Below, in pieces: positions 18,901 through 21,900 of a stretch of DNA of 64,000 nt; position 1 is the stretch's first letter, and every line of letters starts with the position of its first letter. The stretch lies in the NCBI RefSeq assembly GCF_056712565.1, contig NZ_CM160072.1; one strand, given 5' to 3'. The position numbers are program-made.

Positions 18901-21900
18901 AAACAAATGAAGCTGAGCATTCTGGATAGATAATCCGAATTTTTGCATCAGATAAAAGGTGTAATAGCTGCTGATGCTCGCCATATAGAAATATTTCGAG
19001 AAAATGAGGATTAACAGAATGCTGACCGCCAGAACAACTTTATTGCGCGGCAGTGGATTGATAATCGTCGCTTTGGGTTTTCCTTTATTCATTCGGTGCT
19101 GTGCCGAGTACCAACGGCTGATTTGCGCCAACACCACGATCGCCAGCAGTGCCGCAAGCACAAACCAGGCAACGTTGCCTTTGCCATAAGGCGCGATAAT
19201 CACCGCCGCCAGCAAGGGGCCCAGGGAACTGCCAAAGTTGCCGCCGACCTGAAATATAGATTGCGCCAGGCCATGACGCCCGCCGGAAGCCATACGGGCC
19301 ACGCGAGAAGATTCCGGATGAAAGACCGATGAACCGGTACCGACCAGCGCCGCTGCCAGCAGAACTGCGCCGAAACTGCCCGCCAGCGCCAGCAGCACCA
19401 GACCACTTAAGGTAAAGCACATGCCAATCGGCAACGACCACGGCATCGGATATTTATCGGTCCAGTAGCCGACCACCGGTTGCAGTAGCGAAGAGGCGAG
19501 CTGGAAGGTGAGGGTTATCATGCCAATCTGCATAAATGTCAGAGAAAATTCTGACTGAAGCAGTGGATAAATCGCCAGAATCAGCGATTGGATCATGTCG
19601 TTCAGCAGATGTGAGAGGCTGATAGCACCTAAAATACCAAACGATGTTCGGGCCTTAGTCGTTGACGCAGCCGCGCCCGCCACAGGCTGGGTTTGTTCAC
19701 TCATTGCCATAGGAAAGTCACTTTTTCAGGGTTGCGATGTAAAGAATGATCTTATTTGTGATTATTACCCGACTAACATACCTGTATGCGCCGCCTGAAG
19801 GAAGTCTCAACGCGGAATACAGAATTTCTAATCTGGATGCAGATTTATCTTCACCGGACGCAGACTTGTCTATGATGTCGCGTCATACTATTTTTCAACA
19901 CGTTGAAATCAGGTCAGGGAGAGAAGTATGAAATTATTACAGCGGGGCGTGGCGTTAGCACTGTTAACCACATTTACACTGGCGAGTGAAACTGCTCTGG
20001 CGTACGAGCAGGATAAAACCTACAAAATTACAGTTCTGCACACCAATGATCATCATGGGCATTTTTGGCGCAATGAATATGGTGAATATGGTCTGGCGGC
20101 GCAAAAAACGCTGGTGGATGGTATCCGCAAAGAGGTTGCGGCTGAAGGCGGTAGCGTGCTGCTACTTTCCGGTGGCGACATTAACACTGGCGTGCCCGAG
20201 TCCGACTTACAGGATGCCGAACCTGATTTTCGCGGTATGAATCTGGTGGGCTATGACGCGATGGCGATCGGTAATCATGAATTTGATAACCCGCTCACCG
20301 TATTACGCCAGCAGGAAAAGTGGGCTAAGTTCCCGTTGCTTTCCGCCAATATCTACCAGAAAAGTACCGGCGAGCGCCTGTTTAAACCATGGGCGCTGTT
20401 TAAGCGTCAGGATCTGAAAATTGCCGTTATTGGCCTGACGACGGATGACACAGCCAAAATTGGTAATCCGGAATATTTCACTGATATCGAATTTCGTAAG
20501 CCCGCTGATGAAGCGAAGCTGGTGATTCAGGAGCTGCAACAGACAGAAAAGCCAGACATTATTATCGCGGCGACCTATATGGGGCATTACGACAATGGTG
20601 AGCACGGCTCTAACGCACCGGGCGATGTGGAGATGGTACGCGCGCTGCCTGCCGGATCGCTGGCGATGATCGTCGGTGGTCACTCGCAAGATCCAGTCTG
20701 TATGGCGGCAGAAAACAAAAAACAGGTCGATTACGTGCCGGGTACGCCATGCAAACCGGATCAACAAAACGGCATCTGGATTGTGCAGGCGCATGAGTGG
20801 GGCAAATACGTGGGACGGGCTGATTTTGAGTTTCGTAATGGCGAAATGAAAATGGTTAACTACCAGCTGATTCCGGTGAACCTGAAGAAGAAAGTGACCT
20901 GGGAAGACGGGAAAAGCGAGCGCGTGCTGTACACCCCTGAAATCGCTGAAAACCAGCAAATGATCTCGCTGTTATCACCGTTCCAGAACAAAGGCAAAGC
21001 GCAGCTGGAAGTGAAAATAGGCGAAACCAATGGTCGTCTGGAAGGCGATCGTGACAAAGTACGTTTTGTACAGACCAATATGGGGCGGTTGATTCTGGCA
21101 GCACAAATGGATCGCACTGGTGCCGACTTTGCGGTGATGAGCGGAGGCGGAATTCGTGATTCTATCGAAGCAGGTGATATCAGCTATAAAAACGTACTGA
21201 AAGTGCAGCCATTCGGCAATGTGGTGGTGTATGCCGACATGACCGGTAAAGAGGTGATTGATTACTTGACCGCCGTCGCGCAGATGAAGCCAGATTCAGG
21301 TGCCTACCCGCAATTTGCCAACGTTAGCTTTGTGGCGAAAGACGGTAAACTGAACGACCTGAAAATCAAAGGCGAACCGGTCGATCCGGCGAAAACTTAC
21401 CGCATGGCGACATTAAACTTCAATGCCACCGGCGGGGATGGCTATCCGCGCCTTGATAACAAACCGGGCTATGTGAATACCGGCTTTATTGATGCCGAAG
21501 TGCTGAAAGCGTATATACAGAAAAGCTCGCCGCTGGATGTGAGTGTTTATGAACCGAAAGGTGAGGTGAGCTGGCAGTAATGAACCCCGTCGCGGCGTCA
21601 TGATATGACGCCGCCATTTATGAATATTGAAATCTTGCATCGTAATCGCGATGTGTCAAACCAAATGCCATCAGCATATAATTCTGCGGATCACCAGGCT
21701 GTTCTTCATCTGCTTCAAACCAAAGTGTCACGCCTGAGCGATTGACGTGGATTAAGAGTGTATGGGGCGATTGACGGCGGATTTGCAGATCAGCGCCTTC
21801 GTTAACAAGCATGTTAAATACACGCGTAACGTTCAACTCAGCGACGTTATTCAATATTCCTTTATCAAATCGGATCGCTTTGCCCAAATGGATTTGGCTC

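What the first reader, a model, noticed from the sequence alone, without database searches (positions are those of the whole stretch)
19836..19871. Imperfect 15-bp direct repeat in the ushA upstream region
gatgcagatttatct and gacgcagacttgtct are separated by 6 bp, about 60-90 nt upstream of the ushA start; this could be a tandem binding site for a regulator or a small duplication.
Basis: seen in the sequence. Interest (0 to 1): 0.2.

Follow-up and report, generated by a model that had tools for sequence, protein, structure and literature searches.

The report
Decayed duplication in ushA promoter
The two similar 15-base stretches upstream of E. coli ushA are worn-down copies from an old small tandem duplication; the copy nearer the gene carries part of the promoter, the other drifts freely, so this is an ordinary evolutionary scar and not a regulator's double docking site.

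Summary
The repeat is real and at the stated coordinates: 19836-19850 and 19857-19871 match at 12/15 with a 21-bp period. On its own it is only weakly beyond chance (P about 0.02-0.05 for the 217-bp fsr-ushA intergenic region).

Comparison with 80 Enterobacteriaceae ushA loci explains it. Every Escherichia lineage carries 41 extra bp (21 in one lineage) between a conserved box (GAAGGAAGTCTCAA) and TTGTCTAT. Nearly all other genera in which both anchors could be located have 13-14 bp there. The extra DNA resolves into three 21-bp units (19814-34, 19835-55, 19856-76), each resembling the single ancestral unit GAAAACATATTTGTCTATTCT.

Published K-12 start sites map to A19897 and G19902. Copy 2 therefore lies over the -35 region, and its TTGTCT sits 17 bp upstream of TATTTT. 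Across Escherichia, TTGTCTAT never varies. Copy 1 varies at 53% of columns, the same as ushA third codon positions (55%). Copy-to-copy identity falls to 7-11/15 in sister lineages.

No known regulator consensus, RNA family or conserved ORF fits. Verdict: a decayed promoter-region tandem duplication. The "small duplication" reading is supported. The "tandem regulator site" reading is not. Interest is low.

The parts
18490..19710 (-). fsr coding sequence (fosmidomycin MFS transporter), the divergent neighbour
   Evidence: ORF list; RefSeq annotation of the K-12 counterpart
19775..19780 (-). Inferred fsr -10 hexamer (TATGTT on the minus strand) inside the conserved block GACTAACATACC
   Evidence: The K. 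pneumoniae fsr start-site row in Kim 2012 Table S1 gives the upstream sequence ...GACTTCCTTCAAACC..GCAGGTATGTTAGTTGGA. The block is conserved (2/26 variable columns in Escherichia). A rough matrix scan lists TTCCTT-17-TATGTT. The E. coli fsr start site itself was not found.
19797..19810 (.). Conserved box GAAGGAAGTCTCAA. It contains the inferred fsr -35 (TTCCTT, minus strand, 19798-19803) and serves as the left anchor for the length comparison.
   Evidence: It has 0/14 variable columns in Escherichia and is at least 90% conserved at most positions in 71 outgroup loci. The K. pneumoniae start-site context is.
19814..19834 (+). Unit 0 of the 21-bp array (GGAATACAGAATTTCTAATCT), the most decayed copy
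   Evidence: It matches the outgroup unit at 11/21 without gaps and gives the best gapped score of the three E. coli units, 10. In E. albertii and L002 its 5' part is TGAAAACAGA against outgroup TGAAAACATA. A 21-bp stretch that largely overlaps it (19811-19831 as aligned) is missing in lineage L004.
19835..19855 (+). Unit 1 (GGATGCAGATTTATCTTCACC).
   Evidence: It matches the outgroup unit at 12/21 at a fixed register (P about 0.002-0.003) and unit 2 at 13/21. 52-53% of its columns vary among Escherichia lineages, the neutral rate.
19856..19876 (+). Unit 2 (GGACGCAGACTTGTCTATGAT), the positional ortholog of the single ancestral unit.
   Evidence: It matches the outgroup unit at 14/21 in E. coli and 18/21 in E. 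albertii. All its variation is in the 5' half (4/10 columns); TTGTCTAT shows none (0/8).
19866..19871 (+). -35 hexamer TTGTCT of the ushA promoter that fires at G19902
   Evidence: TTGTCT-17-TATTTT is the top plus-strand candidate in a rough sigma-70 matrix scan. The homologous TTGTCT-17-TAATTT is the top hit, at 31-32 nt from the ATG, in 5 of the 12 other genera sampled and co-top in two Klebsiella/Raoultella loci. It is invariant in Escherichia. About 17% of E. coli genomes carry a variant in the 48-bp stretch; the three sequenced all have C19870T, giving TTGTTT.
19884..19889 (+). CATACT, the likely -10 hexamer for the start site at A19897
   Evidence: The start site at 504107 (U00096.2) lies 31 nt upstream of the ATG and appears in two independent data sets. 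The hexamer ends 7 nt before it. It is conserved in all Escherichia lineages. The assignment of the hexamer is inferred.
19889..19894 (+). TATTTT, the likely -10 hexamer for the start site at G19902
   Evidence: The start site at 504112, with a 26-nt 5' UTR, is listed in Kim 2012 Table S1. Spacing to TTGTCT is 17 bp. It aligns without gaps to TAATTT in other genera.
19897..19902 (+). Published ushA transcription start sites (A19897 and G19902)
   Evidence: Kim et al. 2012 Table S1 lists 504107 (3 reads) and 504112 (4 reads) with ushA starting at 504138. The Cappable-seq GTF lists 504107 with score 10.6. The coordinates agree with NC_000913.3 ushA at 504914 given the 776-bp offset between the two genome versions, which is from my own knowledge.
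19928..21580 (+). [quoted passage not shown]
   Evidence: ORF list; RefSeq annotation

Best explanation
The two 15-mers are the best-preserved parts of a three-unit, 21-bp-period tandem array (19814-19876). The array arose in an ancestor of the genus Escherichia by tandem duplication, twice, of the short segment that holds the ushA -35 hexamer and the roughly 10 bases upstream of it. It still supplies the -35 region (TTGTCT, 17 bp upstream of TATTTT, start site G19902; a second start site at A19897 uses CATACT). The two distal units, including copy 1, have no detectable sequence-specific role and are drifting apart at the neutral rate. Their only structural effect is to move the back-to-back fsr promoter box 41 bp (about four helical turns) away from the ushA -35. 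Shown: the repeat itself, the lineage-specific length gain, the similarity of the units to the outgroup unit, the conservation pattern, and the positions relative to published start sites. Inferred: the duplication mechanism (slippage or unequal exchange), the hexamer assignments, and the neutrality of the distal units.
For: 1) The gap between the conserved box GAAGGAAGTCTCAA and TTGTCTAT is 55 bp in five of seven Escherichia sequences, 56 in L005 and 35 in L004. It is 13-14 bp in every non-Escherichia locus where the anchor script found the first TTGTCTAT, and by eye in the Enterobacter-type loci where the script picked a second, UTR copy. TTGTCTAT-to-ATG stays at 59-65 bp in nearly all loci. 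The gains of +41 and +21 are close to 2 and 1 periods.
2) Units compared with the outgroup unit GAAAACATATTTGTCTATTCT: E. coli 11, 12 and 14 of 21; E. albertii unit 2 18 of 21. The fixed-register chance of at least 12/21 is 0.002-0.003.
3) The motif GAAAACAGA / GAATACAGA occurs in unit 0 and in unit 2, 41-42 bp apart, in E. albertii and L002, where outgroups have one GAAAACATA. In E. coli all three units carry CAGA where outgroups have CATA, a shared derived base.
4) Lineage L004 lacks exactly 21 bp, one period.
5) Variable columns across Escherichia lineages: copy 1 53%, unit 0 48%, ushA third codon positions 55%, TTGTCTAT 0/8, conserved box 0/14.
6) Copy 1 to copy 2 identity is 12/15 in E. 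coli but 11, 9, 8 and 7 in other Escherichia lineages.
7) Start sites at 19897 and 19902 place copy 2 over the -35 region. TTGTCT-17-TATTTT is the top matrix hit, and its homolog is the top hit at the same distance from the ATG in about half of the other genera sampled.
8) The segment is single-copy in E. coli genomes, so it is not a dispersed mobile repeat.
Against: The array is too decayed for Tandem Repeats Finder or the repeat finder to call. Unit 0 fits only with small indels. Unit 1 of E. albertii matches the outgroup unit at only 8/21. The gain is 41 bp, not 42. The hexamer assignments rest on a rough matrix built from remembered frequencies and on low-read start-site data (3 and 4 reads). 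The start site at 19897 has no good -35, which leaves room for an activator. I could not read Burns and Beacham 1986, which reported three ushA transcripts (cited in PMC8475336). E. fergusonii was not sampled. Neutral-rate divergence does not exclude a sequence-independent role such as spacing or DNA bending.
Confidence: 0.7

Rival explanations
1. The two copies are a tandem operator: two in-phase sites, 21 bp (two helical turns) apart, for a regulator of ushA and/or fsr. One site would overlap the -35 and the other lie at about -55.
For: The 21-bp period puts both copies on the same face of the helix. They lie at -26..-66 relative to mapped start sites, where activators and repressors act. 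The 19897 start site lacks a good -35 and so might need an activator. Growth-phase-dependent transcript ratios were reported. In E. coli each copy holds a small inverted repeat (AGAT..ATCT and AGAC..GTCT), seen directly in the sequence.
Against: Copy 1 varies at the neutral rate within Escherichia, and copy-to-copy identity drops to 7-11/15. The small inverted repeat is lost in E. albertii, where copy 2 reads AGATTTGTCT. Genera outside Escherichia have only one unit. The PhoB, ArgR, PurR, CytR, CRP, CpxR, FNR and Fur consensus sequences match no better than shuffles; the best was a PurR half-site at 6 mismatches, with 9% of shuffles as good. No paper in the held library reports a factor binding here.
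Confidence: 0.1
2. The similarity of the two 15-mers is coincidence. The extra 41 bp in Escherichia is an unrelated insertion, or accumulated indels, that happens to resemble its flank.
For: A 12/15 pair at short range arises in about 5% of simulated 217-bp regions, and the real window has about 50 such pairs. The repeat finders do not call it. Unit 1 matches the outgroup unit at only 8-12 of 21 depending on lineage.
Against: The length gains equal about 2 and 1 periods. The fixed-register match of unit 1 to the outgroup unit has P about 0.003. Unit 0 and unit 2 both carry the ancestral GAA(A/T)ACAGA motif with the same derived G. A 21-bp deletion occurs in one lineage.
Confidence: 0.15
3. The repeat encodes a repeated peptide (DADLS...DADLS) in a 61-codon upstream ORF (19746-19931) whose stop overlaps the ushA ATG (ATGA), or it forms an RNA or DNA structure.
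For: The period of 21 is a multiple of 3. The ORF is open in this strain and in K-12 and ends in ATGA.
Against: The frame is broken in L003, L005, L006 and all outgroups examined. The mapped start sites (19897 and 19902) lie downstream of nearly the whole ORF. There is no Rfam match. Folding of 19810-19900 is unremarkable (z = -1.8).
Confidence: 0.02

Closest known systems
Small tandem duplications in bacterial intergenic and promoter DNA, produced by slipped-strand mispairing or unequal exchange and then decaying by point mutation
   Same: The copies are head to tail with a fixed 21-bp period. The lineage-specific length gain is close to a whole number of periods. One lineage has lost exactly one period. 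The copies resemble the single ancestral sequence. The distal copies drift neutrally.
   Different: The array is old and degenerate (about 55-65% identity between units), so it is not a currently unstable repeat. No copy-number variation was seen among 5,426 complete E. coli genomes.
Back-to-back divergent sigma-70 promoters sharing a short control region
   Same: The ushA -35 (TTGTCT) and the inferred fsr -35 (TTCCTT on the other strand) face away from each other. In other genera they are 21 bp apart. Both blocks are invariant in Escherichia.
   Different: In Escherichia the two -35 elements are 62 bp apart because of the duplicated units. The E. coli fsr start site was not found in the data I could read, so the fsr promoter is inferred from K. 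pneumoniae.
Direct-repeat operators with 21-22 bp spacing, for example paired ARG boxes of ArgR or tandem Pho boxes of PhoB
   Same: Two similar sites on the same helical face, overlapping and just upstream of a -35 region.
   Different: There is no match to either consensus. The second site is not conserved even within the genus. [quoted passage not shown]

Membership tests
Decayed tandem duplication | Head-to-tail copies at a constant period | tested here: met
   Copy 1 and copy 2 are in register at 21 bp, 12/15 (13/16) identities. Whole units match at 13/21.
Decayed tandem duplication | Length gain relative to outgroups equal to whole periods at the same site | tested here: met
   The box-to-TTGTCTAT gap is 55 bp in most Escherichia sequences (56 in L005) and 35 in L004, against 13-14 in other genera. 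The gains are +41 and +21.
Decayed tandem duplication | Extra copies resemble the ancestral single-copy unit more than chance allows | tested here: met
   Unit 1 matches at 12/21 at a fixed register, P 0.002-0.003. Unit 0 gives a gapped score of 10. All three E. coli units share the derived CAGA.
Decayed tandem duplication | Detected by standard tandem-repeat software | tested here: not met
   Tandem Repeats Finder at minimum score 30 and the repeat finder return nothing. The copies are too diverged.
Sigma-70 promoter -35 element (copy 2, 3' end) | A hexamer resembling TTGACA 16-18 bp upstream of a -10 hexamer with A at position 2 and T at position 6 | tested here: met
   TTGTCT (4/6), 17 bp, TATTTT (4/6). 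This is the top plus-strand score in the region, 11.6, between the 90th and 99th percentile of random 217-bp windows. The stricter 9-of-12 scan finds nothing.
Sigma-70 promoter -35 element (copy 2, 3' end) | An experimentally mapped start site at the right distance | tested here: met
   The start site at G19902 is the eighth base after the end of TATTTT (7 intervening bases) (Kim 2012 Table S1, 4 reads). The second start site at A19897 appears in two data sets.
Sigma-70 promoter -35 element (copy 2, 3' end) | Conservation across related species | tested here: met
   TTGTCTAT has 0/8 variable columns in Escherichia and is the majority base in roughly 70-99% of the 71 outgroup loci at each position. 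An E. coli polymorphism, C19870T, exists; about 17% of genomes are variant in the 48-bp stretch and the three sequenced all carry it.
Tandem transcription-factor operator | Both copies conserved in related species | tested here: not met
   Copy 1 varies at 53% of columns against 55% at third codon positions. Copy-to-copy identity is 7-11/15 in sister lineages. Other genera have a single unit.
Tandem transcription-factor operator | Match to a known regulator consensus (PhoB, ArgR, PurR, CytR, CRP, CpxR, FNR, Fur; consensus strings from my own knowledge) | tested here: not met
   The best hits are no better than shuffles. The lowest shuffle fraction was 0.09, for a PurR-like half-site.
Tandem transcription-factor operator | Direct binding evidence (footprint, ChIP, SELEX) | not testable with these tools
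   No such report was found in the held library. RegulonDB and EcoCyc were not available.
Known structured RNA (Rfam) | Covariance-model match | tested here: not met
   No match at E-value up to 1 in 19600-20050.

The most novel reading that the evidence does not exclude
The Escherichia-specific gain of two 21-bp units (41 bp, about four helical turns) was not neutral. By separating the back-to-back fsr and ushA promoters, it uncoupled two promoters that compete or share an upstream element in other enterobacteria. It also accompanied the appearance of a second, Escherichia-specific ushA start site (CATACT, A19897). This would make it a small, datable example of promoter rewiring by tandem duplication of a -35 segment.
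Probability: 0.1. Interest if true: 0.35.

Novelty: new member of a known kind. Interest (0 to 1): 0.15.

Why it matters
It matters little beyond annotation. It removes a candidate regulator site from consideration. It places the repeat on the published ushA start-site map. It also documents a clean, datable case in which a 21-bp promoter segment was duplicated in the Escherichia ancestor and then decayed, changing the spacing of two divergent promoters. That case could serve as a natural test of how spacing between back-to-back promoters affects expression.

Tried and rejected
1) Repeat finders: the repeat finder (seed 6) and Tandem Repeats Finder (minimum score 30) return nothing. The built-in promoter scan (9 of 12) finds no promoter.
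2) Rfam at E-value up to 1 gives no match. Folding of 19810-19900 is unremarkable, z = -1.8.
3) Upstream ORF 19746-19931, with the DADLS repeat and an ATGA overlap, is not conserved even within Escherichia and is rejected.
4) The palindrome idea (AGAT..ATCT and AGAC..GTCT looking like compensatory changes) fails because the symmetry is lost in E. albertii.
5) Known regulator consensus sequences (PhoB, ArgR, PurR, CytR, CRP, CpxR, FNR, Fur) are no better than shuffles.
6) Mobile-element origin is rejected because the segment is single-copy per genome.
7) Literature. Burns and Beacham 1986 (PMID 3012467, PMC339864) and the id I tried for Thomason et al. 2015 (PMC4288677) are not held. The ROSE and Rend-seq supplements have no ushA entry or are not held as text. 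Phrase searches for an ushA promoter or for regulators returned nothing relevant.
8) My first guess of K-12 coordinates (ushA at 504110) was wrong and gave empty look-ups. It was corrected with NC_000913.3 and by Kim 2012, which lists ushA at 504138.
9) My first assignment of TATTTT as the only -10 had to be revised. The better-supported start site (A19897) needs CATACT, and G19902 fits TATTTT.
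Full report
**1. The observation**

The window is E. coli. fsr (18490-19710, minus strand) and ushA (19928-21580, plus strand) flank a 217-bp intergenic region.
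- GATGCAGATTTATCT at 19836-19850
- TCACCG as a 6-bp spacer
- GACGCAGACTTGTCT at 19857-19871

They share 12/15 identities, or 13/16 with the preceding G, at a 21-bp period. They lie 57-92 nt upstream of the ATG.

On its own the repeat is only weakly beyond chance. Markov simulations of the intergenic region give an equal or better pair in 1.6-4.7% of trials. The real 64-kb window contains dozens of comparable pairs. Neither repeat finder nor Tandem Repeats Finder calls it.

**2. What the comparison with other genomes shows**

I fetched 80 ushA loci from one-genome-per-species Enterobacteriaceae and lined up the upstream DNA.

Outside Escherichia the region has one fixed architecture...GACTAACATACC..TTTGAAGGAAGTC(T/G)CAATTCTGAAAACATATTTGTCTATTCTTG....TGTAATTT...TCAGGGAGAG..ATG (consensus from 71 loci).

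The gap between the box GAAGGAAGTCTCAA and TTGTCTAT is:
- 13-14 bp in essentially every genus outside Escherichia where both anchors could be placed. The anchor script gave this directly for 27 loci. In the Enterobacter-type loci it picked a second TTGTCTAT in the 5' UTR, and the first copy sits at 14 bp by eye.
- 55 bp in most Escherichia sequences, including E. albertii, and 56 in L005.
- 35 bp in one Escherichia lineage, L004.

The distance from TTGTCTAT to the ATG stays at 59-65 bp in nearly all loci, Escherichia included. Escherichia therefore gained 41 bp at this spot, close to twice the 21-bp period. L004 differs from its relatives by exactly one period.

**3. Anatomy of the extra DNA**

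| Unit | Coordinates | Sequence |
|---|---|---|
| u0 | 19814-34 | GGAATACAGAATTTCTAATCT |
| u1 | 19835-55 | GGATGCAGATTTATCTTCACC |
| u2 | 19856-76 | GGACGCAGACTTGTCTATGAT |
| Outgroup single unit | n/a | GAAAACATATTTGTCTATTCT |

Identities to the outgroup unit are 11, 12 and 14 of 21 in E. coli. In E. albertii u2 matches at 18/21. A random 21-mer reaches 12/21 at a fixed register with P about 0.002-0.003.

In E. albertii and L002, u0 still begins TGAAAACAGA against outgroup TGAAAACATA. u2 begins GAATACAGA or GAACGCAGA. The same motif therefore occurs twice, 41-42 bp apart. In E. coli all three units carry CAGA where outgroups have CATA, a shared derived base.

I read this as a tandem duplication, applied twice, of the segment carrying the ushA -35 in the Escherichia ancestor, followed by decay. 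The segment is single-copy in E. coli genomes, so it is not a dispersed element.

**4. Position on the promoter map**

The original S1-mapping paper is not in the held library. [quoted passage not shown]

Two genome-wide data sets were readable:
- Kim et al. 2012, Table S1, lists ushA start sites at 504107 (3 reads, 31-nt 5' UTR) and 504112 (4 reads, 26-nt UTR), with ushA starting at 504138.
- The Cappable-seq GTF lists 504107 as the only plus-strand start site between 502598 and 505079.

These map to A19897 and G19902 in the window.
- G19902 fits TTGTCT (19866-71), 17 bp, TATTTT (19889-94). This is the top hit of a rough sigma-70 matrix. Its homolog, TTGTCT-17-TAATTT, is the top hit at the same distance from the ATG in 5 of the 12 other genera sampled and ties for top in two more.
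- A19897 fits CATACT (19884-89) and has no good -35.

Copy 2 therefore spans -40..-26 or -45..-31, and its 3' end is the -35 hexamer. Copy 1 spans -61..-47 or -66..-52.

The conserved box on the other side is the fsr promoter. The K. pneumoniae fsr start-site row gives ...GACTTCCTTCAAACC..GGTATGTTAGTTGGA. That places TTCCTT (box, minus strand) 17 bp upstream of TATGTT. In other genera the two -35 elements sit back to back, 21 bp apart. In Escherichia they are 62 bp apart.

**5. Is either copy under selection?**

Fraction of variable columns among four or five Escherichia lineages:

| Region | Variable columns |
|---|---|
| ushA third codon positions | 55% |
| Copy 1 | 53% |
| u0 | 48% |
| u2, 5' half | 40% |
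| TTGTCTAT | 0/8 |
| fsr box | 0/14 |

Copy-to-copy identity is 12/15 in E. coli, 11 in L004, 9 in L002 and L003, 8 in E. albertii and 7 in L005. Nothing maintains the similarity. Only the -35 part of copy 2 is constrained.

Within E. coli, the 48 bp around the repeat are identical in 4,494 of 5,414 genomes. The other roughly 920 differ at one position or so, and the three I sequenced all carry C19870T, which turns TTGTCT into TTGTTT.

**6. Alternatives**

- **Tandem operator.** This is not supported. The second site is not conserved. No match to the PhoB, ArgR, PurR, CytR, CRP, CpxR, FNR or Fur consensus beats shuffles. No binding report turned up. The small inverted repeats inside each E. 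coli copy are not kept in E. albertii.
- **Pure chance.** This is unlikely given the period-multiple length gains, the fixed-register match to the outgroup unit and the shared derived base. I leave it about 15%.
- **Repeated peptide.** The 61-codon ORF that would read the repeat as DADLS...DADLS is broken in other Escherichia lineages and lies upstream of the mapped start sites.
- **RNA or DNA structure.** There is no Rfam match and no unusual fold.

**7. Verdict**

The feature is an old, decayed tandem duplication of the ushA -35 segment, specific to Escherichia. The proximal copy works as part of the promoter, and the distal copies behave as neutral spacer.

I found no description of it in the literature I could search, but it is an ordinary kind of event. 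Interest is low.

The one reading with some novelty is that the four-turn expansion uncoupled the back-to-back fsr and ushA promoters and accompanied the new CATACT start site. I give that about 10%.

Noticed in passing
window 19852-19860; locus L082 3142-3920: E. coli strain HH107 carries an IS1 element inserted between copy 1 and the -35 of ushA, with a 9-bp target duplication CACCGGACG. It separates the ushA core promoter from everything upstream. It was the only record among 5,419 matches that did not cover at least 80% of the query.
   Followed up: partly
window 19870 (also 19812): About 17% of complete E. coli genomes (920 of 5,414) differ from the window within the 48 bp 19830-19877. 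The three sampled all carry C19870T, which changes the -35 hexamer TTGTCT to TTGTTT, together with G19812A. The effect on ushA expression is unknown.
   Followed up: partly
locus L004 (Escherichia lineage, strain SCPM-O-B-8794), upstream of ushA; window equivalent 19811-19831: There is a deletion of exactly 21 bp, one repeat period, removing unit 0. The junction was not found in any of 5,426 complete E. coli genomes.
   Followed up: yes
window 19756-19810, minus strand: Two blocks, GACTAACATACC and GAAGGAAGTCTCAA, are nearly invariant across about 70 Enterobacteriaceae genomes. They coincide with the -10 (TATGTT) and -35 (TTCCTT) of the fsr promoter as mapped by the start site in K. pneumoniae. 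The E. coli fsr start site was not in the data I could read.
   Followed up: partly
loci L007, L009-L014, L026, L066 and relatives (Enterobacter, Lelliottia, Leclercia), about 60 and about 26 nt upstream of the ushA ATG: The 10-mer TTTGTCTATT occurs twice, 35 bp apart: once at the -35 and once in the 5' UTR just before the ribosome-binding site. E. coli lacks the second copy. This could be chance or a clade-specific regulatory site.
   Followed up: no
locus L022 (Citrobacter amalonaticus), between the ushA promoter and the ATG: There are about 125 extra bp between TTGTCTAT and the ATG. The sequence (…GGAGCTTACTAAAGGAAGTGACAGGGATGAGCGAGCG…GCCAACGCAC…) looks like an ERIC/IRU-type intergenic repeat. 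This identification is from memory and was not verified.
   Followed up: no
locus L006 (E. albertii), ushA upstream: The TATTTT -10 equivalent reads TCATTT, and 2 bp are missing just downstream. A different candidate, TTGAAA-15-TATTTT, appears across units 0 and 1. E. albertii may use a different ushA promoter.
   Followed up: no
window 19746-19931, plus strand: A 61-codon ORF spans the intergenic region and ends in an ATGA overlap with the ushA start codon. It is open in E. coli but broken in sister Escherichia lineages, so it is probably not a gene.
   Followed up: yes
whole window: Short imperfect direct repeats (at least 13/16 at 16-40 bp spacing) are about four times more frequent in the real 64-kb sequence (16) than in first-order Markov simulations (4.2). 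Such repeats should therefore not be judged against a simple random model.
   Followed up: no
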